Made by a program: the position numbers and the translations under genes. Positions 51,089 to 64,000 of a DNA stretch of 64,000 nucleotides are shown here, in pieces. The DNA comes from Spirochaetia bacterium (GTDB lineage Bacteria; Spirochaetota; Spirochaetia; SP-2023). The DNA lies in NCBI GenBank assembly GCA_965263485.1, contig CBDHHO010000003.1, positions 26,359 through 90,358 of the forward strand, written 5' to 3'. The notes beneath the pieces were generated by a model, which saw only the letters and a list, made by a program, of their open reading frames with translations, had not been told where the DNA came from and made no database searches. Each line of letters opens with the position of its first letter. Positions within the stretch are counted from its first letter, which is position 1.

Positions 51089-51218
51089 AGATTTCTCCCT
51101 CACTTCGGAAAATTTGGTTTCATGATTTTGCGCTGCAAATATAAACACGGGGAACAGACATCGTCAAGCAAAAAAATTCCGGCCGCGAATATCAGCCAGA
51201 TTCCAAGAATCTGTTTAA

Positions 51219-51445
51219 GGGAAGCTCTAAAAATTCCAATTCCGCGCTTGAAGCGGCGATCTTTTCACGAATAAAAGTTCTGCCTTACGGCAGGATTTGT
51301 GAGGAATGGCCTGCTTCGCCTCGCCATTCCTCACCGTCAGGAAAGCTCCGTGATACAACAAAGTATCATGGAGCTTTCCTTCCTAGCCATTGTGAAAATC
51401 TCACTCGCTTAAAACTTAAGGGACCTCTAAAAATTCGCTTTTGCT
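51219..51445. mobile_element. MITE with two strong hairpins, plus a second left end (51419) at the prophage boundary
   Basis: GGGAAGCTCTAAAAATTCCAATTCCGCG; GGGACCTCTAAAAATTCGC. Confidence 0.75.
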
Positions 51446-51905
51446 GTGAGGCTGTCCTTGACAACTGCGCAGCCCTATGGCCTGCTGCGCCATTTGCCCT
51501 CAGACTCCATGAGTCTGGTCGTCAAAGCAGATGGAGAAGAACGGCGCATTGCCGTGCTTGGTTATAGAAAGGAAGTTCCCTACGGTTTGGAAGAGGGCGA
51601 AGTTGCCCTGTACAGTTCGCACGGACAAGTTTTGTACTTTAAAGATGACGGCTCAATCCACCTAGAAGCGCGCAAGGCAAGTTGAGCCTGCACAGTGAAA
51701 AAGAAGACCTATACAGCCTGCTCAAGGACCTTTTATCGGCAATTAAGGGGCTGACTACGGCGCAGATCGATACAGCAGTAACGGGGTCGAGCAAGACGGG
51801 CGGCTCGGTCGAGGGCACAGGCAAGAATGCCGGTGTGGGCTTAAACGCCGAAACGACTCAGAAGCTGGACGAGCTTGCCCAGCGGTTGGAGAAGCTGCTG
51901 CAACA
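51446..51905 (+). pseudogene. Mu gp45-like baseplate spike, 5'-truncated, frameshift ~51680
   Basis: QPYGL..GLEEGEVALYSSHGQVLYFKDDGSI, continuing in another frame as DLYSLLKDLLSAIKGLTT. Confidence 0.65.
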
Positions 51906-52241
51906 GGGCCAAAAGCCCAGCGAGGAAGCGGAGAGGCAGCGCGAGGCCCAGCAAGCGCAAGAAAAGCAGCAGGATCAGAACGCTCAGAAACACGGCCAAA
52001 GATATTTTGGGAAGGCTCAAGCGAGTCGAAATGAACGAAGAGCAGCGCCAAAGGGCGCACAAACGGCTCACCGAGATCACAAAGTCCTTTCGCCCAAGCT
52101 ATATCGAGGGGATTCTGGAGGCAGAGGAGCGACGCTGGAACAGGGCCAACGACAATCTGCCCAGTTTTGATTATCTGGCACCAGAGCACAACAAGGCCTA
52201 TCAAGCGCTCGTTCGCGCCTTGTTTGCCATGAGCCTGCCCC

Positions 52242-53333
52242 TCACCTTTGCCGCCGAAACGGGAACATCAGGGCTGTGGGTCGTTGGCGCGGGGGCTGCG
52301 GGGGCTGCGGGTTCTGCGGTTCCTCATACAAATCAAGGTAATTTACACCGGATTCCTTCAGCTTGTCATCAATTTCACTGTCCGACAGATGCCGGTAAAG
52401 ACCCTTGAGCGCATACCACCGCGAGGCCAGATTGACTTTGTACTTTCTGTCCTCAGTCCAGTAAGCCTGGCAGTAACGACAGAGATAACGCACCTCGCCA
52501 ACCACCTGGCTGTGCTTGTGCCCGAAAGACAAACCATAAAGCAACTTGCGCTGGCCCTGCTCATCCTCCGGCCCCATCTCGCCGAAAATCATCTCTTGCC
52601 ACTGACCGCAAAGCGGGCAGGGCGACAACCACTTCTCGCGAGTCCCGGCCAGATAGTCCTTGTGGAAATCGTTGCCGGCCAGGGTTGGCGTGGAAACCGC
52701 CAGCATCGCACCGTCCGGATTCGCCTCCATGCGCCCGGCAATTAGATCCTTGGCCGTGCCCTCATTGGGGAAGGTAGGAAAAACATCGCGTTCGTCCAAC
52801 ACGGCAAAGTCCGCTTCGTGCTGGCGGAAATTATTCTGGTTGTTGGCCCCGGAAAACTTCAAATAATTGCCGTGGACAAACTGCCACAATTGAGCCGTTT
52901 CGCCGGTCTTTTTGTTCTTCTTCCTGTCGTTCTGCCGGTCCTTCAGGCCAATCTGCTCCATCGCCCCGGAGGCCAAAAAATGTGGCCGCACCTTGACCTG
53001 AATATATTCGTCCAGCAACTTCTGGTCCGCACTGACATAATACTGATTCTTGCGGGCCACCATCACATTGTAAAACAACACCGGAATGATCATGCCCACA
53101 GTCGCACCAATCTTCACCGCCTTGATAAAGTCCACCTGACGCACCGGAGAATAATAACTGCACAAGTCCATCGGACGCCGGAGATACGGCGTCTTGGAAA
53201 TGTCAAAACCCTCCCAATACAACGAACCGGGAGGCTGAACCCGATACTTCAGCGCAGCAAAGTCCGAAACACTCAGCGTAGTTGGCGTTAGCGAACGGAA
53301 AAACTGCGCGACCTGGGAATCTCTTGGCTCCAT
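52242..53333 (-). pseudogene. Terminase large subunit (lambda GpA family), ATPase part only
   Basis: KTPYLRRPMD, KAVKIGAT, VLDERD, VSTPT, PCPLCG..YLCRYC; nuclease domain missing. Confidence 0.8.
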
Positions 53334-53390: not shown

Positions 53391-53948
53391 CTAAAAATTA
53401 TGGGAGACCCTCTCAAAGATGACGTAATGAGCCTCTGGTAGCCTGATTCTGCCTATGGCTGTGTCAAATAATACTGCGGGCATTGCCAACAACTCATCAT
53501 AATTAATCAGAAAGTAAAAATACCCAATTTCGTGGATAGTAATCTTATAGATATACTTCACATCAGGGGCGATACCTATTTCAGCAAAGGTATCAGAAAA
53601 GTATGCCATATGACCTGGGAACATACCTCTAAATTCATTGAAACAAATATACCCAATAGTCTGAATATCTTCTTTCTTGATTATTAAGTGGTTTTCTTCT
53701 ATTGCGGCAAATTCCTCTTTGGTAAGTATATGCTCTGAAGGAAGAACCCTCTGTTGGGCATCTGGCATAACCCGAATGTTCTTGACTCTCCATTCACCCA
53801 CCGCATAGCGATACATTCTCGTAGGATCATCTATGCACTCGGTAAATGGGGAAAAGTCTTTCGGCGTTTCAGCCTGAATCCCTTTGGTGATCAACAGAAA
53901 TACAGTAAGGCAAAGGTATAGATAAATTGACAGTTTAGACCCGGTCAT
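53391..53948 (-). CDS. Secreted protein, candidate lysozyme immunity protein
   Basis: Sec signal (..LLITKGIQA-ET), AT-rich, overlaps the upstream gene by 14 nt. Confidence 0.65.
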   Translation of the reverse strand: MTGSKLSIYLYLCLTVFLLITKGIQAETPKDFSPFTECIDDPTRMYRYAVGEWRVKNIRVMPDAQQRVLPSEHILTKEEFAAIEENHLIIKKEDIQTIGYICFNEFRGMFPGHMAYFSDTFAEIGIAPDVKYIYKITIHEIGYFYFLINYDELLAMPAVLFDTAIGRIRLPEAHYVIFERVSHNF

Positions 53949-55398
53949 CGGTGTTCCCTCCTCTTTTTTGTGGTATCAGATAGGTCTCCCTGGCGGGTAC
54001 AGGCCCCCCAAGGTCTGGCATATTTGCTAAATCCCTTGCTGTAAGGGCGACAAATGAAGTCTCAATATTGGCTGGGTTTATTCCATATTGGCCGCGAAAG
54101 AACATCTCCATTTCATCCTTGCGCCTGCGGATTAGACCCCGGAGTATTCTATCACCGCCTGTATGTTTTTGCCAATCTGCTAAAATGCGACTCTGAACGT
54201 TTGGTTCATCAAAATCTTCATGGCTTTGCACTGTCTGGAAAAAACTTGCATTCAATACTCGGTCTCTACTCGTGTTGAAGCCAAATGATACCAGAGCGTC
54301 AAACTCACATTGCCTCAAATGTCTGCCACTCGAATAAGCCTTAGCATTGCCAAGTTCTCTTAAGGCATACGTAGAGTCAGGTTTGCCACCCTCAAATCCT
54401 TTATTGATCCCTTCCTCAAGAGATTCTATATCTTTTTCAAAAATAGCCAATGCCATTGTTTCGGAAATACGGACGATGGTGATACTCGTCTTCCCATCAA
54501 CAATGCCAATATTCGCCGGATTATTTCTGTCTTTTTGATACTGTTGATAGAACTCGGTAAATCCTTCTATATGACTGAATCTCTCCGGCGCATGGGCATC
54601 AATTTCATGTCCATAACCTACCGTCCAATTCCCTCCTGCAGTGGCGCGGTAAGGGTTTGGCCGGAATCTCTCATACCCCTTGATAAAGGCACTGCCTTGG
54701 CTACTGGTAGAGAGTTTCATCGCTTTCCATACCACCTCTTGCTGCTCCGCACCTTCTGGACTGCCTTCCTCACTATTCACCAGATGCCGGTTGCTCTTCC
54801 CGCCCTCATTCTGCCCAGTTCCCGCCTCGCTGTCTTGCCCGACTTGGCCACTTTCCTCACCGCCCCCGTTTTCTTCCTCACTCTCCGCCCCGCTGCCGTG
54901 CAGCACCATCTCGCTTTCCACCTCGCTGTAGTCGGGTAACTCCAGACTCTTTAAACCGGCGACAACGTTGGCCTTGTATGTCGCACCACCATCCTGAGTC
55001 GCCGTCACCGCATCGCTCAGGGCATATTTAATTCCTTTCAGATAGTCGCTGACCTTCTCTAACTGGGTCTGCAACTCTTCCCATTTCACCAAACCACCAT
55101 AGTCATTGCCGGACAATTCCACTGTGCCGTCCTCCTTGACCGTCACATCATTTTTGTCGTTGTCCAGGTGGACATCAGCCACCGTCTCGCGTTCCACACC
55201 GACCAAAATATAATCACTGGCATTGTTGTTCACCCGCGCCACATAAATCGTCTCACCCGCAACCAGGTCCCGGCTGAGGCCGGGGGGATAAACCAAATTG
55301 ATCCCGGTACGGGCAGCGACTTCTCCCATAATCACAAATCGGGATTCGGTCTTGTCGCCAATTTCGTGCAAGCCGTCATATTTGGCGCGGTAGATCAT
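53935..55398 (-). CDS. Baseplate spike-like domain + acidic linker + GH24 phage lysozyme
   Basis: GGLVKWEEL..DGGATYKA; then FIKGYERFRPNPY..WTVGYGH..QCEFDALVSFGFN..GLIRRRKDEMEMF. Confidence 0.8.
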   Translation of the reverse strand: MIYRAKYDGLHEIGDKTESRFVIMGEVAARTGINLVYPPGLSRDLVAGETIYVARVNNNASDYILVGVERETVADVHLDNDKNDVTVKEDGTVELSGNDYGGLVKWEELQTQLEKVSDYLKGIKYALSDAVTATQDGGATYKANVVAGLKSLELPDYSEVESEMVLHGSGAESEEENGGGEESGQVGQDSEAGTGQNEGGKSNRHLVNSEEGSPEGAEQQEVVWKAMKLSTSSQGSAFIKGYERFRPNPYRATAGGNWTVGYGHEIDAHAPERFSHIEGFTEFYQQYQKDRNNPANIGIVDGKTSITIVRISETMALAIFEKDIESLEEGINKGFEGGKPDSTYALRELGNAKAYSSGRHLRQCEFDALVSFGFNTSRDRVLNASFFQTVQSHEDFDEPNVQSRILADWQKHTGGDRILRGLIRRRKDEMEMFFRGQYGINPANIETSFVALTARDLANMPDLGGPVPARETYLIPQKRGGNTDDRV

Positions 55399-55413: not shown

Positions 55414-56367
55414 TCAAGCCTTGTCGAGTTCCTGTTCGCAGCGGACCAGGGTTTCCTCAAAGCTCATGACGTATTCGGTCATCAGCTCGGAGGCCTTTTG
55501 CTTCTGTTCTTCCAAGGGGATCTTCTCCAGGTATATCTCGGACAGACGCTCGGCAATGGGACTGGCACCGAAGTTGACCAATGGAGAGACAATCGCCTGC
55601 AGGCCCTCTAGCAAAATTTCCTTGGCCTTGGCCCGTTCAATGTAATTCCCCTTGTCTACACCCATCCGATGCATCAGGCGTTGGATCTTGGTTTGCACCT
55701 CCGAGACCTTGGAGGCCACCAGGGCCTTGTCGAGGTCTGGCCTCGATAATTGCAGCAAATCGTCAAGCTCGGCGTTATAGCTGGATAAAGTTTTACTATC
55801 TATAACGTTAAACGGGGGACTTTGTTCCTGATCCGCCGGATATGGCGTCCCCTTTTCGGGGGTCTGCTGCTCCCGGCTCAGCAACGGTGGTGATGCGGGT
55901 GCCGGGCCCGCCGGAGCATTGGGATCTGCGGCCTGCTCGCCCTGCTGCCGCTTCACCTGATCGATTTCCGGCCGGAACTCGACGAACTTCAGACTCACGC
56001 GATAGCTCTGTGCGCTGCCCTGATTGCTGGCCAGCTCCGTCAAGTAACAACGCCCGATCCCCCAAGAGCGCGTCTGCGGGAAAGACAGCTCGTACTGCAC
56101 CGCCTCCCCGCCCTCCGTTTTTTTGAACAGGGCCACTACGTTTTCGAGCACTGTATCCAGCTCTTCAGCCCCCTTGCCCAGCAGCACGGCTTCCACACTC
56201 ACCTCTGCGGGCTCCCAGCCCTTGAGCGTAAAGTCCCGCCCGCCATCGGCGCGCACATTGCGGTCGGCCTGCATCCGGGCGCTTACGTTCACACTGCGCA
56301 CGATGCCCGGCAAGATCTTCTGGTTCAGGGTCAGCTCTTTGCCCTGGGGTAAGGCAGCCAGGATCAT
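55414..56367 (-). CDS. Phage tail protein, apparently fused to a small-terminase-like C-terminus
   Basis: Follows the tape measure; ..YRVSLKFVEF, Pro-rich joint, then KGNYIERAKAKEIL..PIAERL. Confidence 0.55.
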   Translation of the reverse strand: MILAALPQGKELTLNQKILPGIVRSVNVSARMQADRNVRADGGRDFTLKGWEPAEVSVEAVLLGKGAEELDTVLENVVALFKKTEGGEAVQYELSFPQTRSWGIGRCYLTELASNQGSAQSYRVSLKFVEFRPEIDQVKRQQGEQAADPNAPAGPAPASPPLLSREQQTPEKGTPYPADQEQSPPFNVIDSKTLSSYNAELDDLLQLSRPDLDKALVASKVSEVQTKIQRLMHRMGVDKGNYIERAKAKEILLEGLQAIVSPLVNFGASPIAERLSEIYLEKIPLEEQKQKASELMTEYVMSFEETLVRCEQELDKA

Positions 56368-58610
56368 CAGGCTGCACCTCTTGCAGCTGCCTGCAACAAT
56401 CGTACAAAGTCGGAAATCTCCTCAATATCCTCTGCGTTGACCCTCAGATTCTCGATGTGAACCGACACGCTGTCATTCCCGCGGATGCGGGAATCCCCGC
56501 CGCCTTCTCCGGGCACATTGCGGATCCGCCCCCGGTGCAGCCGCTCCAAGTTATCCAGCCCAATCCGTTTTACCGAGTCCTGAGAAAAAACATACTCCCC
56601 GGCGTGGACCACCCCGGCAATCTGATTGACCGAGCCGGGGCCGGTATAACCGCCCCCGGTAAAGCCCTTGATGTTTCCGCCAGCCGGGACGCTCCCGGGG
56701 GCCTTTTTCCCGCCGCCCACCAACCATTGCCAGGCACCGGTCAGCATATTGATGCCCTTGCTCACGGGGGCAAATAATGTTTCAAAAAATTCCTTTACTG
56801 GTTTCCAAACACTAATAACCAACGAGGCTAGATTTGTAAATATTCCAGAAAACCAATCGCCAACCGTATGCAAAACCGACAGCAACCCCGACCACAGACC
56901 GACAAAAAACGCTTGTACCGGCTGCCATATCGTTATAATAGCATTCCCAATCGGGGCAAAGATATTCATCAAATAATTGCCCACCGCGCTCGCAGCGGCA
57001 GTGATCCCCTGCCATAAAGACGCGAAGAATGCCTTAATCGGCTGCCAGTGCGTCATAATCGTTTTGACAACTAGCACAGGTATCGTGACCCATGGAGCCC
57101 ATAGAACACCAATTGCCGCAAAAAAAGGGTTGTTCAATAAATTGCTGAACCAGCTGATTGCCGTCTTTACGCCGAAGACAATCCCATCCCACACCTTGAC
57201 TGCAAAGGCCCGAACCGTTTCCCAGTTTTTATACAGCAGCACACCAATCGCCACGACTGCCGCAATTCCGGCGGCTATCAGCAGTATCGGGCCCAGAGCT
57301 GCCCAGTGAGCCACCGCGAAGGCGTAGGCCTTGGGGATGGCAGCCATAAATTTACCCCCCAAATTCATGACAGCCCCCGCCACCATAGCCACCGGACCGG
57401 CAGCAACGGCAACCCCACCCAGCAAAAGCAACGTGTTTTGTATCGGTTGAGAGAGCTTGCCAAACCCAATAGCTAAATTACTAATTCCAGCTGCCAGCGG
57501 TTCGGCAACCCTCAAAGCCAAAGCCAACGCAGGCATCAAGCCCTGTCCAATATTCTGGGCACTCACTGCAACCTGGCTTTTTAACTGTTCAAACTGGAAT
57601 CCCAACTTATTGATGCCCCCGGTCTGCGCTGTGAAAGCTGCATCCAGTGCCCCACTGGAACTGTACATTTCCTTTAATTTTTCGTTATATGTATCCGCTG
57701 AGGCCCCGGCAAGCACCATAGCGACCTTCCCAGCTTCAGAGGAACTGAATAAATTGGTTATCTTCTGTCCTGAAGCTTGAGCAGAAGCCCCCAGAGCTTG
57801 AATGGCACCGCCAAACCCGAGTTGTGCAATCATCGCATCACTGGAACTGTAGCCCAAGTCGGCAATAGCCCCGGCTAGAGCCTTCCCCGGCTTTACCATC
57901 TCAGTGAGGATTGCGGCTGTGGAAGTACTTACCTCTGCTGCGGAGCCGACAACGCCGGTAGTCGTGGCAAACACGGCAAACAAGTCCTCCTGAGACACCC
58001 CCAGCGCATTGGCATTGCCAGTCACCTTGCCAATGCTGGCAGCCAGCTCCGGAAACGTAGTCTGACCCAGTTTTACCGTCTGAAAAGCCAGATCAGCGGC
58101 CTTCTGCATTGCGGTCGCGCTGGTATCGCCATAGCCTTTGGTTACCGCAGAAGTCAGGGCTATAGCCTCGCTGGTCGTGGCCATACCCGCAGCCGCCGCT
58201 TTGGTATTAATTTCCAGCGTTTTAGAAGTATCAGCGGTATCGCCAAATGCCGATATAACGTTGTACAGTCCGTCATTTAAACTGGCTGTGCTCTGCCCAA
58301 ATTGCACAGCCATATTCTGTACATTTTGCCCAAGTTCCTGCACCCGCTTCTCAGCAACACCCAAACTGGCTACATTGGCCAGACCTTTATTGAAATCTAC
58401 TCCAGCTTTAAGGGCGGCCACCCCGATTCCAACCAAAGGAACCGACATAGCCATTGTAGCCTTCTTGCCGACATCCACCATCTTTGCCCCGGCAAACTGG
58501 GCTCTCTGTGCCCCGGTCTCCAAATCTGCCCAGACTGCCTTGGCCTTAAGAGCCGGAGCAGAAAACTGATCGTGTAATTTAAGAGCTACACTTGCAATCA
58601 AATCGGCCAT
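56367..58610 (-). CDS. Phage tail tape-measure protein (TP901 family)
   Basis: FQTVKLGQTTFPELA, Trp/Phe-spaced repeats, GGYTG..AGVVHAGEYV. Confidence 0.9.
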   Translation of the reverse strand: MADLIASVALKLHDQFSAPALKAKAVWADLETGAQRAQFAGAKMVDVGKKATMAMSVPLVGIGVAALKAGVDFNKGLANVASLGVAEKRVQELGQNVQNMAVQFGQSTASLNDGLYNVISAFGDTADTSKTLEINTKAAAAGMATTSEAIALTSAVTKGYGDTSATAMQKAADLAFQTVKLGQTTFPELAASIGKVTGNANALGVSQEDLFAVFATTTGVVGSAAEVSTSTAAILTEMVKPGKALAGAIADLGYSSSDAMIAQLGFGGAIQALGASAQASGQKITNLFSSSEAGKVAMVLAGASADTYNEKLKEMYSSSGALDAAFTAQTGGINKLGFQFEQLKSQVAVSAQNIGQGLMPALALALRVAEPLAAGISNLAIGFGKLSQPIQNTLLLLGGVAVAAGPVAMVAGAVMNLGGKFMAAIPKAYAFAVAHWAALGPILLIAAGIAAVVAIGVLLYKNWETVRAFAVKVWDGIVFGVKTAISWFSNLLNNPFFAAIGVLWAPWVTIPVLVVKTIMTHWQPIKAFFASLWQGITAAASAVGNYLMNIFAPIGNAIITIWQPVQAFFVGLWSGLLSVLHTVGDWFSGIFTNLASLVISVWKPVKEFFETLFAPVSKGINMLTGAWQWLVGGGKKAPGSVPAGGNIKGFTGGGYTGPGSVNQIAGVVHAGEYVFSQDSVKRIGLDNLERLHRGRIRNVPGEGGGDSRIRGNDSVSVHIENLRVNAEDIEEISDFVRLLQAAARGAA

Positions 58611-59348: not shown

Positions 59349-60655
59349 GGCTCTTCGGTACGTCTTGTGGATTTTAGGTAAAGATGATACAATGGGGAAA
59401 TGAACGATAAGCAACTTTTAATTTTGGGCCTGGGACTGAGCGAACCATGGCAGATTATCAGTCAGGAACTCAGAGAAGACAAGAAGCCACATGAATTACA
59501 CATCGCAATTAAAGCTGAGCGTGGCTCCAAGTATCCGTGTCCCGAGTGTAAGAAAATGTGCCCTGCTCACGACTTTAAGGAACTTGAATGGCGGCATTTA
59601 AACTTCTTTCAACACCATTGCTACATCCGCGCAAAAGTACCCCGAACAAAATGTTTAGAGCATGGTATCAGGCGTATTCTGGTCCCATGGGCAAGAAATG
59701 GAAGCTCTTTTACCTTACTCTTTGAGCAGGCTGTTCTCATGCGTGAAATGCCTATGCTTTCAGTAGCCAGACAAACTGGAATCGAAGATAAAAGAGTTGC
59801 CAGAATTATCAAACATTACGTTGAAGAAGGCAAAAAACAAATAGATTTATCTAATTTAAAATCTATTGGACTTGATGAGACATCAAGCAAGCGAGGACAT
59901 AACTATGTGACTGTATTTGTCGATATGGATAAGAAAAAGGAATCTGTAATTTTTGCGACAGAAGGAAGGGATTCCAGTGTTGTTAAGGAGTGCAAAGACT
60001 TTATAGAAGAACATAATGGGGAAAAAGAAAATGTTGAAGAAGTAGTTTGTGATATGTCAAAGCCTTTTTTGAAAGGAATCAGAGAGAATTTTCCTGAATC
60101 TTCGGTAACAGCTGATTGGTTTCATATTTGTAAGAAGTTTGTAGAAGCATTAAATACAGTGAGGAAATCTGAGAGTAAACATAAGAATTTCCCTAAGCAT
60201 GCACGATGGGCAGTAGTAAAGAACCCGGCGAACAATGCCCTGACAAAGTCACAGTTGGAAGCTTTACTGGAGCTTGAAGCGGGAGGTTTTCAGACGATGA
60301 CGGGGTATCAGATAAAAGAGAAATTATCTTGGATAAGAGGCGCGAAAACTTTACAGGGAGCCAAGTGGAGGATTCGAAGATTTATCAATTATTCGAGAGA
60401 ACTGATAAAAGATCAGGATTTATTAGAGCCGATGGCTAAAGCATTGGATAGCTTGGAGAAACATGGGGATAAGGTGGTGGAGCGCTGGCGCTCAGGTAAG
60501 ACAAGCGCCCGTCTGGAAGGGTTGAACAGTATATTTCAAGCGGTTAGAGCCAGGGCTAGGGGTTACAGGAATACAGAAACATTTTTAATGATGATATACT
60601 TGCTCGCCAGTCCGGTAGCTGCGACTCTAAAATCAACTTGATATACCGAGGAGCC
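59349..60655 (+). mobile_element. ISL3-family insertion sequence, no target duplication
   Basis: IRL GGCTCTTCGGTACGTCTTGTGGATTTTAG; IRR reverse complement GGCTCCTCGGTATATCAAGTTGATTTTAG. Confidence 0.92.
59400..60641 (+). CDS. ISL3 transposase
   Basis: CPEC..WRHLNFFQ, GLDETS..GHNYVT, CDMS, DWFH, EGLNS..ARGYR. Confidence 0.95.
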   Translation: MNDKQLLILGLGLSEPWQIISQELREDKKPHELHIAIKAERGSKYPCPECKKMCPAHDFKELEWRHLNFFQHHCYIRAKVPRTKCLEHGIRRILVPWARNGSSFTLLFEQAVLMREMPMLSVARQTGIEDKRVARIIKHYVEEGKKQIDLSNLKSIGLDETSSKRGHNYVTVFVDMDKKKESVIFATEGRDSSVVKECKDFIEEHNGEKENVEEVVCDMSKPFLKGIRENFPESSVTADWFHICKKFVEALNTVRKSESKHKNFPKHARWAVVKNPANNALTKSQLEALLELEAGGFQTMTGYQIKEKLSWIRGAKTLQGAKWRIRRFINYSRELIKDQDLLEPMAKALDSLEKHGDKVVERWRSGKTSARLEGLNSIFQAVRARARGYRNTETFLMMIYLLASPVAATLKST

Positions 60656-60772
60656 AAAATGCCAAAATTTGGGATGGGTGGTGTTTAAAATTGACTTTTG
60701 AAAAGATTAGGGTTATGTTATAAAGGTAATCAGATTTGCATTGCAAAAATACAATGAATGAAGGAGTTTGTT

Positions 60773-60970
60773 ATGTCTAAAAGTGACTGGGAATTTTTCA
60801 ACTGTTCCGAACCGCACGAGCACGATTATGTCGTAGGGCTTTACCCTAAAGCTGAAAAGGAGGAAGTCCGTAATTTACTAAAGAAATGGTGTAAGGATGG
60901 GACAATCAATAATACCAAACATACAGAGATTTATGAGCTTTTAGAGAAGAAAGGCTATCATAGAAACTAA
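60773..60970 (+). CDS. Small hypothetical protein A (65 aa), copy 1
   Basis: TTGACT-17-TATGTT at 60691, AAGGAG RBS. Confidence 0.8.
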   Translation: MSKSDWEFFNCSEPHEHDYVVGLYPKAEKEEVRNLLKKWCKDGTINNTKHTEIYELLEKKGYHRN

Positions 60971-61320: not shown

Positions 61321-61628
61321 GGGGATAAGGTGGTGGAGCGCTGGCGCTCAGGTAAGACAAGCGCCCGTCTGGAAGGGTTGAACAGTATATTTCAAGCGGT
61401 TAGAGCCAGGGCTAGGGGTTACAGGAATACAGAAACATTTTTAATGATGATATACTTGCTCGCCAGTCCGGTAGCTGCGACTCTAAAATCAACTTGATAT
61501 ACCGAGGAGCCAAAATGCCAAAATTTGGGATGGGTGGTGTTTAAAATTGACTTTTGAAAAGATTAGGGTTATGTTATAAAGGTAATCAGATTTGCATTGC
61601 AAAAATACAATGAATGAAGGAGTTTGTT

Positions 61629-61826
61629 ATGTCTAAAAGTGACTGGGAATTTTTCAACTGTTCCGAACCGCACGAGCACGATTATGTCGTAGGGCTTTAC
61701 CCTAAAGCTGAAAAGGAGGAAGTCCGTAATTTACTAAAGAAATGGTGTAAGGATGGGACAATCAATAATACCAAACATACAGAGATTTATGAGCTTTTAG
61801 AGAAGAAAGGCTATCATAGAAACTAA
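61629..61826 (+). CDS. Small hypothetical protein A, copy 2
   Basis: Identical to 60773-60970. Confidence 0.8.
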   Translation: MSKSDWEFFNCSEPHEHDYVVGLYPKAEKEEVRNLLKKWCKDGTINNTKHTEIYELLEKKGYHRN

Positions 61827-62431: not shown

Positions 62432-63739
62432 TCAGGCTGTCTGTTCCCGCAGCTTTTCTGATTCGCGGAATTCTCTCGCCTGCGCTAACTTCGTGAAGTG
62501 TACTTCTGTATTTAGCTCATCTTTTACTGCATCTTCAATTTCTTGAATATTATCGATAAAGAAAAATTCTTTCCGGTCGTTAATCATATTTACCCGTCTG
62601 TTTTCGAAAATGCCGTGGAGTTTGTTTTCCAGGGCAGGTGCGTCATCTGTGCTAATCATCGCATGTACATCAAATTCAAAGGGCACCGATGCATCTCCAA
62701 GTTCTTTCACACGATCCATCGGTTCCAGCCGACGGGTCATCCCTATCTTAAAAACGCGCTCTCCAAAAGAACCTATGTTAGATATTACATATACGTGTCC
62801 TGTTCGGGTTTGCTGTGCCATTGATAAGGCCCGTTCTTTGCTTTCCTCTGCTTCTTTTAATTGCTGTTCCAGAAGGGCTATTTTCTCATTTAAAGTATTT
62901 AGTTCATCTCCCTGCAAATTCTGAGCTTCCTTCATAGCTTCGTCTAACGCTGTTTGGTATCGTTTCTCTTCTTCTATTGCTTCCTTTTCCGCTTTTGCAA
63001 TCTCGCGCCTGACTTTTTCTTCCTCGCGCATTTGTTCTTTTATCCGTCTTTGCTCTTCCTTTTCCTCATTCAGTTTCTCCTGGTATTCGTGAACCAGATG
63101 CAGCTCTTTTATTTTCCAGTTCCGATAATGGCCAGATATACGTATATCACTGCTTTCTCCCAGCTTATTTATCGTGTCAAAAGAGGTGCTTATTTTATTC
63201 TTCATGTGGTCAAAGTTATTCCACTTAACTTTTTTAATAACGCTATCACAATCATTATTAAAAACGCGCAGCATCAACTTCATTTGATCTCTACGTCTCT
63301 TTTTCTCCTCCTTGGAAATATTTCCATCGTGCAAAAGCATTGCTTTCTTTTCTTTAATCATTGCTTTTTCTTTCTCTATAATACGATTCAGCTCCTGCTT
63401 ATATTTTTCAGCCGTCTCAAAGTCATATTCGGCCTCATATACGCCCGTTTCTATAACAGCAATTGAGCTTTCCAATTGCTCTAAATATGCTTCTCGGTCT
63501 CCGATTTCCTGCTCTAAGATCTCCTGCTGTCTTTGTGTCTGCTGCATGTGGATCCCTGCTTCATCAAGCAAAGCCTGGACTCTTGCAAGCTCTTCATCTT
63601 TGTCTATAACACCCTTAAACCGCCTGCGCAGAGCTTTTGTCTTTCCAACATATATAAAAAGAATCGTTAGCGTAATTAAAAATGCAGCTAAAAACATAAT
63701 AAATCCTCCATCTATCAGAACACTTGAAATAACCCTCAC
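62432..63739 (-). CDS. Membrane-anchored DUF4041 + T5orf172 (GIY-YIG-like) protein
   Basis: N-terminal TM, coiled coil, GHVYVISNIGSFG..KIGMTRRLEP..RV.ELGDASVPF.FDVH. Confidence 0.9.
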   Translation of the reverse strand: MRVISSVLIDGGFIMFLAAFLITLTILFIYVGKTKALRRRFKGVIDKDEELARVQALLDEAGIHMQQTQRQQEILEQEIGDREAYLEQLESSIAVIETGVYEAEYDFETAEKYKQELNRIIEKEKAMIKEKKAMLLHDGNISKEEKKRRRDQMKLMLRVFNNDCDSVIKKVKWNNFDHMKNKISTSFDTINKLGESSDIRISGHYRNWKIKELHLVHEYQEKLNEEKEEQRRIKEQMREEEKVRREIAKAEKEAIEEEKRYQTALDEAMKEAQNLQGDELNTLNEKIALLEQQLKEAEESKERALSMAQQTRTGHVYVISNIGSFGERVFKIGMTRRLEPMDRVKELGDASVPFEFDVHAMISTDDAPALENKLHGIFENRRVNMINDRKEFFFIDNIQEIEDAVKDELNTEVHFTKLAQAREFRESEKLREQTA

Positions 63740-64000
63740 AACACCCTCAAAAATTCAGCATTGCAATACCACTGCTCCCCTTTGCTCGGGTAAATGCTGC
63801 GCCCAGAACCATCCATATACTCGAAATGAGGGCCGGTGTGGTCCAAGCGGAACTTCTTTATAGTCGCTTTTCCTTTGAGTGTAAAGACATAAACCCGCCC
63901 GCTGATAGGCTCCTGGCACACCCGCAGCAGTACGTTTGAGCCGTCGGGGATGATGTCGGCCATGCTGCCCCCCTCAATACGCACCGCAAAAACTTTTTCC
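63736..64000 (-). CDS. S24 peptidase domain of a CI/LexA-like repressor; runs off the window end
   Basis: FAVRIEGGSM..IPDG..ATIKKF (Ser-Lys dyad). Confidence 0.8.
   Translation of the reverse strand, partial: EKVFAVRIEGGSMADIIPDGSNVLLRVCQEPISGRVYVFTLKGKATIKKFRLDHTGPHFEYMDGSGRSIYPSKGEQWYCNAEFLRVL

What the first reader, a model, noticed from the sequence alone, without database searches (positions are those of the whole stretch)
53391..55398. Phage spike::lysozyme fusion with a coupled secreted gene: candidate effector-immunity pair on a phage tail
Seen: ~170 aa of baseplate-spike-like sequence, a ~55-aa E/G/S linker, then a GH24 lysozyme (E..Y..T.GYGH, FDALVSFGFN, GL.RR..E) with insertions. 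It overlaps by 14 nt an AT-richer 185-aa gene with a Sec signal peptide. Both are intact while neighbouring packaging genes are broken. Established: evolved VgrG/PAAR spikes carry C-terminal peptidoglycan hydrolases followed by periplasmic immunity genes; T4 gp5 has an internal lysozyme but no such partner. Inference: a polymorphic-toxin-like module delivered by a phage-derived contractile tail (tailocin-like) in a spirochaete, possibly with a new lysozyme-inhibitor family.
Basis: partly seen in the sequence, partly recalled or inferred. Interest (0 to 1): 0.8.

Follow-up and report, generated by a model that had tools for sequence, protein, structure and literature searches.

The report
Phage tail spike with swappable warheads
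A prophage remnant in a spirochaete encodes a tail-spike protein fused to a cell-wall lysozyme, relatives of the same spike carry a different toxin-type domain instead, and the next gene likely makes a periplasmic protector, so these phages would carry interchangeable weapons on their tail tips.

Summary
ORF 55398-53935(-) (487 aa) is a Mu gp45-like spike (1-168), an acidic linker and a GH24 lysozyme. It overlaps by 14 nt a 185-aa gene with a predicted signal peptide. GC3 is 0.65 in spike plus linker and 0.42 in both lysozyme and partner, so those two probably arrived as one cassette.

The spike is polymorphic. Close relatives (64-67% identical over the spike) carry GH24, DUF4329/Tox-JAB-2 or a tandem JAB-like domain, and the same DUF4329 also sits on a second spike lineage. 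105 of 117 family members have no extension.

Not shown: that the partner binds or inhibits the lysozyme (one homologue, context unknown), or that the lysozyme is active (E243 and T259 are kept; the Asp/Cys site is Ala).

T4 gp5 does have a periplasmic inhibitor (Spackle). 'Tailocin' is weakly supported: this locus lacks hub, wedge, sheath and tube, and the spike family sits in Mu-like prophages.

Verdict: probably a new phage-borne polymorphic toxin/immunity carrier (tail spike rather than MuF). The main rival is an entry lysozyme with a Spackle-like exclusion protein.

The parts
54895..55398 (-). Mu gp45-like baseplate spike domain (residues 1-168), ending in the family's terminal LHG motif (His167 at 54900-54898)
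   Evidence: phrog_27270 E 1.3e-20. Homologues lie between hub and gp46/J and hit PF06890 weakly. H167 is conserved in at least 90% of 97 aligned sequences. AF2 and Foldseek gave weak spike hits only.
54730..54894 (-). 55-aa acidic E/G/S linker
   Evidence: differs among homologues
53935..54729 (-). GH24 lysozyme domain with insertions and a conserved ~45-aa tail; E243 and T259 kept, middle catalytic position Ala252; GC3 0.42
53391..53948 (-). 185-aa partner with predicted Sec signal peptide (about residues 1-26); candidate periplasmic inhibitor; GC3 0.42
   Evidence: one homologue P0003, 55%; no Pfam, PHROG, NCBIfam or PDB match
55414..56367 (-). 317-aa ORF in the tube-initiator (gp43/gpU-like) position
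   Evidence: phrog_1398 E 2e-5; role inferred from position
56367..58610 (-). Tape measure protein
   Evidence: PF10145 and PHROG tape-measure hits
52242..53333 (-). Truncated lambda-type terminase large subunit (ATPase part only)
   Evidence: PF05876 E 2e-31, phrog_15
51446..52408 (+). Broken second spike of another lineage, followed by a fragment of the 'MNIF'-type spike-linked gene
59400..60641 (+). Multicopy transposase interrupting the prophage upstream of the tail genes
   Evidence: the ISL3-type label is recalled, not from a call

Best explanation
This is a Mu gp45-like tail spike fused to a GH24 lysozyme, one version of a spike whose C-terminal domain is swapped among relatives, and the overlapping gene likely encodes its periplasmic inhibitor, so the pair would act as a phage-borne toxin/immunity module. 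Shown: the fusion; alternative C-terminal domains (GH24, DUF4329, tandem JAB-like) on one spike clade; the same DUF4329 on a second spike lineage; the shared low-GC3 signature of lysozyme and partner. Inferred: the spike trimer caps the hub of a contractile tail and is driven through the outer membrane. The tethered lysozymes then cut peptidoglycan in the periplasm, helping entry and damaging cells that lack the partner. The lysogen exports the partner and is protected from sibling particles. In this genome the module is an orphan in a prophage remnant. It can act only if mounted on another tail or recombined into one, or the partner alone may be useful.
For: Five proteins share the N-terminal ~170 aa at 64-67% identity but differ after LHG: P0004 GH24, P0005 DUF4329, P0006/P0007 tandem JAB-like. 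These form one clade (SH-aLRT 99, quick tree). DUF4329 is Tox-JAB-2 of polymorphic toxin systems (PMC3482391, passages). P0010 joins a type-A spike end (31/42 identical to the G000 Mu-like spike, 15/32 to P0005's) to a DUF4329 close to P0005's (z 46), which indicates cassette exchange. 105 of 117 spike-HMM matches end at the apex with no extension. GC3: spike+linker 144/223, lysozyme 111/264, partner 78/185; p 8e-7 and 7e-6 against the spike, p 1.0 between lysozyme and partner. The partner has a predicted export signal, matching a periplasmic target. In other spirochaetes, 4 of 5 toxin-like GH24/pesticin loci are followed by a signal-peptide-like ORF, judged by eye.
Against: The partner has one homologue and its neighbours are unknown, as are those of P0004-P0007, so the linkage rests on one locus. 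The GH24 triad is non-canonical: Ala in 3 of 91 domains against Cys/Asp in 83 (motif from PMC8228626). Other extended spikes in the genus have no immunity-like gene: the G001 426-aa fusion and the MNIF-type genes are followed directly by gp46. The locus lacks hub, wedge, sheath and tube. The endolysin control is not clean: 2 of 4 endolysins with a visible downstream gene are also followed by a protein with a hydrophobic N-terminus. Only two domain classes are known on this spike clade.
Confidence: 0.55

Rival explanations
1. The lysozyme is an ordinary virion entry enzyme like that of T4 gp5, and the partner is a Spackle-like superinfection-exclusion protein or an unrelated moron. There is no weapon role.
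For: T4 Spackle is a periplasmic inhibitor of the gp5 spike lysozyme (PMC7677548). A second gene with recalled lytic-transglycosylase-like motifs (MNIF type) occupies the post-spike slot in other Haliotispira phages without an immunity gene. Only three enzyme copies would be delivered per particle (trimer, PMC11915804).
Against: It does not explain why the same spike clade swaps the lysozyme for DUF4329/Tox-JAB-2. The adjacent, overlapping, same-GC3 arrangement is typical of toxin-immunity cassettes, whereas Spackle is a separate early gene (gene 61.3).
Confidence: 0.25
2. The module belongs to a headless tailocin-like particle kept by the host.
For: G001 has two Mu-like tail+transposase elements with no gpT capsid or Mu portal match, and G000 has one head-deleted copy. 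No VipB/TssC match in 4 of 4 genus genomes, so no T6SS was found to explain the spike.
Against: The window locus has a terminase fragment and no tail machinery. G000 (C4 ~863-895 kb) and G002 have capsid genes next to their tails. Head loss can be simple decay.
Confidence: 0.08
3. The GH24 domain is catalytically weak or dead and serves as a peptidoglycan-binding or host-range module.
For: Ala252 replaces the Asp/Cys in both P0001 and P0004; the pair sits on a long branch and has two insertions.
Against: The catalytic Glu and Thr and the C-lobe motifs are kept at 61% identity between the two homologues. One stand-alone phage endolysin (L140) also has Ala there.
Confidence: 0.07
4. The partner's position is a chance result of rearrangement in a decaying prophage.
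For: The region is a mosaic of at least three prophages with an IS and an inversion junction; about 9% of long host ORFs have GC3 as low as 0.425.
Against: The 14-nt overlap has a ribosome site inside the lysozyme's conserved tail, and the GC3 values match.
Confidence: 0.05

Closest known systems
Evolved VgrG/PAAR spikes of T6SS with peptidoglycan-hydrolase domains and periplasmic immunity proteins (general knowledge; TssI2-TsiI2, PMC9620997, seen as search listing only)
   Same: Spike carrier, linker, variable C-terminal toxin, adjacent exported partner.
   Different: The carrier is a 170-aa Mu gp45-like phage spike without the gp27 hub part. No VipB/TssC was found in 4 of 4 genus genomes. 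The context is prophage.
MuF polymorphic toxins of temperate phages (PMC5576092; abstract and passages)
   Same: Temperate-phage structural protein with swappable C-terminal toxins and a downstream immunity ORF.
   Different: MuF belongs to the head/packaging module and its predicted targets are cytoplasmic. Here the carrier is the tail spike, and this allele would act in the periplasm.
T4 gp5 lysozyme and Spackle (PMC7677548; abstract start and passages)
   Same: T4-lysozyme-type enzyme on the tail spike plus a periplasmic protein (shown to inhibit in T4, only predicted here).
   Different: The gp5 lysozyme is internal and not swapped for other toxins (recalled). Spackle is a 75-aa helical early protein; the partner here is ~160 aa, predicted mostly beta, and overlaps the spike gene.
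Phage Mu gp45 / P2 gpV central spikes (PMC11915804; passages)
   Same: Same gene slot (hub-spike-gp46-gp47) in homologues, weak PF06890 match, conserved apical His.
   Different: The model has only a few beta strands and then a helical hairpin instead of a long beta-helix, and it carries a C-terminal extension.
eCIS / PVC toxin-delivery particles (PMC8213781; passages)
   Same: Contractile-tail delivery of antibacterial toxins, sometimes with immunity genes.
   Different: eCIS are headless domesticated operons with an AAA ATPase; this spike family sits in Mu-like transposable prophages.

Membership tests
Mu gp45/gpV-like central spike | Gene between baseplate hub and gp46/wedge genes | tested here: met
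   Met for direct homologues in L002, L003 and L012. The window copy itself lacks the hub and wedge neighbours.
Mu gp45/gpV-like central spike | N-terminal OB fold (PF06890) | tested here: inconclusive
   Homologues hit PF06890 at E 3e-5 to 0.03, 1 of 8 over the cut-off; P0001 itself does not. Foldseek ranks P2 gpV first and AFP second, but at E 0.12-0.14.
Mu gp45/gpV-like central spike | Long trimeric beta-helix with metal-binding apex | tested here: inconclusive
   The monomer model (pLDDT 70) shows short strands and a helical hairpin. One His is conserved in at least 90%. The trimer was not modelled.
GH24 (T4L-like) lysozyme | PF00959 above the curated cut-off | tested here: met
   54.2 bits against 22.3
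GH24 (T4L-like) lysozyme | Triad Glu-X8-(Asp/Cys)-X5-Thr | tested here: not met
   E243-X8-A252-X6-T259 (motif from PMC8228626)
Polymorphic toxin system | Constant carrier with variable C-terminal toxin domains | tested here: met
   GH24, DUF4329 and tandem JAB-like domains on one spike clade
Polymorphic toxin system | Cognate immunity gene downstream that changes with the toxin | tested here: inconclusive
   A candidate is present here; the contexts of P0003-P0007 could not be obtained; the G001 fusion has none.
Polymorphic toxin system | Toxicity neutralised by the partner | not testable with these tools
   Needs bench assays.
Polymorphic toxin system | Orphan toxin-immunity cassettes | tested here: inconclusive
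   Spike-end+cargo fragments exist in G000, but they look like prophage debris.
Tailocin | Complete tail operon without head and terminase genes | tested here: not met
   No hub, J or sheath at this locus, and a TerL fragment is present.
T6SS evolved VgrG | gp27-gp5 fusion and a T6SS core in the genome | tested here: not met
   The 168-aa carrier has no hub domain; no PF05943 match in G000 (89.6% complete) or 3 relatives.
MliC/PliC, Ivy, PliG, PliI or Spackle lysozyme inhibitors | Sequence or fold match | tested here: inconclusive
   No Pfam or PDB sequence hit. The low-confidence model (pLDDT 51) gives Z up to 4.8 to small lipocalin-like barrels.

The most novel reading that the evidence does not exclude
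Mu-like prophages of Haliotispira spirochaetes have turned the tail spike into a VgrG-like weapon platform. Three spike lineages exchange linker-plus-cargo cassettes (GH24, Tox-JAB-2, an unknown domain, or a separate cargo gene after a shared G(I/V)FELE tail), so that each virion or headless tail injects a toxin. The 185-aa partner would be the first member of a new lysozyme-inhibitor family.
Probability: 0.4. Interest if true: 0.85.

Novelty: new variant of a known kind. Interest (0 to 1): 0.62.

Why it matters
Toxin-tipped spikes are known from T6SS and eCIS, and phage-borne polymorphic toxins from the MuF head protein. A genuine temperate-phage tail spike with interchangeable toxin domains would link the two. 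It would show the 'evolved spike' design arising on phages themselves, and give a testable route by which lysogens arm their virions. The partner, if it inhibits, would be a new T4-type lysozyme inhibitor. No description of such spikes turned up in four full-text searches (listings only, open-access library only), which does not prove absence from print.

Tried and rejected
Complex prediction of lysozyme with partner: no verdict (score 0.00; alignments of 11 and 2 rows); not used as evidence. ESM Atlas: unavailable for both partner sequences. Partner as a homologue of the G162 immunity-like pair: pairwise z about 0 and HHalign probability 0.2; rejected at sequence level. No partner homologue in 5 other genomes of the order, IMG/VR or GenBank phages (best E 0.3). 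No P0001-type spike locus in IMG/VR, JGI metagenomes or GenBank phages, so no second context was obtained. VIA-align on the spike model returned only generic helical hairpins; the spike profile found nothing real in the PDB. The lysozyme tree (quick method; the careful search did not finish) did not place it with toxin-type or endolysin-type GH24. The motif count was mis-registered and is replaced. G001 versus P0009 C-terminal domains: not similar (z -0.7). MNIF-type protein: no Pfam, PHROG, NCBIfam or PDB match. Promoter scan at chance level (3 found, 3.3 expected). No RNA holder listed. Earlier findings: nothing returned. Read-through of the in-frame TAG between the type-A spike and MNIF was considered; a ribosome site overlaps the stop and the G002 equivalent overlaps out of frame, so separate genes are preferred.

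Full report
Observation. The window holds ORF 55398-53935(-) (P0001, 487 aa) and ORF 53948-53391(-) (P0002, 185 aa). They overlap by 14 nt and each has a ribosome-binding site. P0001 matches PF00959 above the cut-off and phrog_27270 over residues 84-170. The linker (169-223) has 13 E, 12 G and 7 S. Short-read contigs from one sample reproduce the stretch with no differences; this may be the source sample, so it checks the assembly and is not independent support. The same-genus genome G001 is titled Ca. Haliotispira prima, so the host is a spirochaete.

The N-terminus is a spike. Residues 83-194 match five other places in the genome. The two complete ones are 225-aa genes lying between a gp44-like hub and gp46/gp47 of Mu-like prophages. 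The same order holds in G001 and in one IMG/VR contig. Eight family members hit PF06890 (Mu gp45) weakly, one over the cut-off. A profile search gave 832 hits, of which the best 150 were returned; that profile also contained DUF4329. Among the 156 proteins fetched, 117 matched a spike-only HMM and 105 of these end at a terminal (K)xxH(G) motif. His167 is conserved in at least 90% of 97 aligned sequences. The AF2 monomer (pLDDT 70) shows N-terminal strands and a helical hairpin. Foldseek gave no significant hit, but P2 gpV ranked first, AFP second, and PhiTE, VgrG, R2 pyocin and Mu baseplate chains were among the top 20 (E 0.12-0.8). I take the assignment as secure from synteny and homology. 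The tip structure differs from the beta-helix described for Mu gp45 (PMC11915804, passages).

The spike is polymorphic. Two homologue searches (lengths 267-853 only) found four relatives at 64-67% identity over the spike. P0004 carries the same lysozyme. P0005 carries DUF4329. P0006 and P0007 carry two repeats related to it (z 12 and 6). DUF4329 is Tox-JAB-2 in PMC3482391 (passages). These seven sequences, with two cluster members, form one clade (SH-aLRT 99, quick tree). P0010, a fragment, joins the end of a different spike lineage (31/42 identical to the G000 Mu-like spike, 15/32 to P0005's) to a DUF4329 close to P0005's (z 46). The other extended matches are P0009 (a second spike half plus an unknown domain), two fragments from this genome, and one truncated match. 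A third spike lineage carries a fused unknown domain in G001 (426 aa, in a full hub-spike-gp46-J operon). In G002 that lineage, and in G000 the type-A lineage, ends in a linker with G(I/V)FELE followed by a separate, homologous 295-316-aa gene.

Lysozyme and partner look like one cassette. GC3 is 144/223 for spike plus linker, 111/264 for the lysozyme and 78/185 for the partner (p 8e-7 and 7e-6 against the spike; p 1.0 between the two; host median 0.62, with about 9% of 1442 long ORFs as low). The drop falls at the domain boundary. The partner has a hydrophobic N-terminus (Kyte-Doolittle 2.8) ending in IQA, read as a Sec signal without SignalP. Its only homologue, P0003 (55%), has a lipobox-like LFWIGC near its start (inference). 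It matches nothing in Pfam, PHROGs, NCBIfam or PDB. A two-sequence model (pLDDT 51) resembles lipocalin-like barrels only at Z up to 4.8, which is inconclusive. PF00959 occurs in 9 of 401 spirochaete-phylum genomes. Of 11 loci outside G000, five look toxin-like (two are cut by contig ends). Four of the five are followed by a signal-peptide-like ORF, and the fifth by a homologue of one of those. Six look like endolysins; the four with a visible downstream gene are followed by membrane proteins, two of them also hydrophobic at the N-terminus, so the control is imperfect.

Results against the reading. The GH24 motif is Glu-X8-(Asp/Cys)-X5-Thr (PMC8228626, passages). Here it is E243-X8-A252-X6-T259, as in P0004. 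Among 91 domains the position was Cys in 77, Asp in 6, Ala in 3 (including one stand-alone phage endolysin) and unassigned in 5. Passages of PMC5606550 did not settle tolerance of Ala. The G001 fusion and the MNIF-type genes have no immunity-like neighbour. The contexts of P0003-P0007 could not be retrieved, so the adjacency is seen once. The locus is a remnant: tape measure, a gp43-like ORF, spike, partner, half a terminase, a broken second spike and an IS. It has no hub, J or sheath. G000 (89.6% complete) does have a Mu-like prophage with capsid, portal, sheath and hub at C4 ~863-895 kb and a head-deleted copy, but with its own spike (about 38% identical). No VipB/TssC was found in 4 of 4 genus genomes.

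Mechanism. Most likely (0.55) this is a toxin-tipped phage spike with its cognate periplasmic inhibitor: tail contraction would place the lysozymes in the target periplasm, and lysogens exporting the partner would be protected. The fusion, the polymorphism and the cassette signature are shown; delivery, activity and inhibition are inferred. The main rival (0.25) has the same biochemistry but an entry/exclusion purpose, as with gp5 and Spackle; it does not account for the Tox-JAB-2 alleles. Tailocin (0.08), dead binding domain (0.07) and chance adjacency (0.05) are less likely.

Novelty. It works like an evolved VgrG or a MuF toxin (PMC5576092, abstract and passages; PMC8213781, passages) but is neither. 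The carrier is a Mu gp45-like spike of prophages. Four searches (listings only) showed no description of this; the genus appears once, in a nomenclature list. No supplements were read; those of PMC3482391 could list such architectures. Rated a new variant of a known kind, interest 0.62.

Noticed in passing
G000:C4:4047-4994 (L003), C4 ~867-868 kb, C4:1728604-1729527, C2:20282-21175, C1:544474-545361; G002 L045:8881-9795: A 295-316-aa gene ('MNIF/MNIQ') between spike and gp46 in two phage lineages. It has a Gly/Ala-rich hydrophobic middle that differs between two alleles in one genome, and E..GRGQI..AAYHG motifs recalled as lytic-transglycosylase-like. No library match.
   Followed up: partly
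L003:1543-2220 and L045:9792-10511: Two distantly related spikes (about 30% identical) both end in a linker plus G(I/V)FELE just before the MNIF-type gene; possibly a cargo-docking tag exchanged with the cassette.
   Followed up: partly
G001:C1 ~224-256 kb and ~2089-2112 kb; G000:C4:1-25000: Mu-like elements with transposase, repressor and full tail operon but no capsid gene found (0 gpT and 0 Mu portal matches in G001; ~3-kb head deletion in one G000 copy). Decay or tailocin-like domestication.
   Followed up: partly
L043:8018-9298 (G001) and P0009: Spike fusions with C-terminal domains of unknown family, not similar to each other.
   Followed up: partly
window 51446-52408 (+): Broken second spike of the G001/G002 type-B lineage followed by a fragment of an MNIF-type gene, head-to-head with the truncated terminase.
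   Followed up: partly
L056:664-1071 and L063:998-1459 (G162): Two related ORFs (z 7) downstream of GH24 domains, one with a lipoprotein-like signal; a candidate unannotated GH24 immunity family distinct from the partner here.
   Followed up: partly
window 51215-51410: A ~190-bp intergenic repeat dispersed in well over 100 BLAST matches across the genome.
   Followed up: no
window 60758-60970 and 61614-61826; 62432-64000: Duplicated 70-aa ORF after IS ends; a DUF4041/T5orf172 gene and a repressor end that belong to the Mu-like prophage family (the repressor region matches C4 ~18.6-19.9 kb).
   Followed up: no
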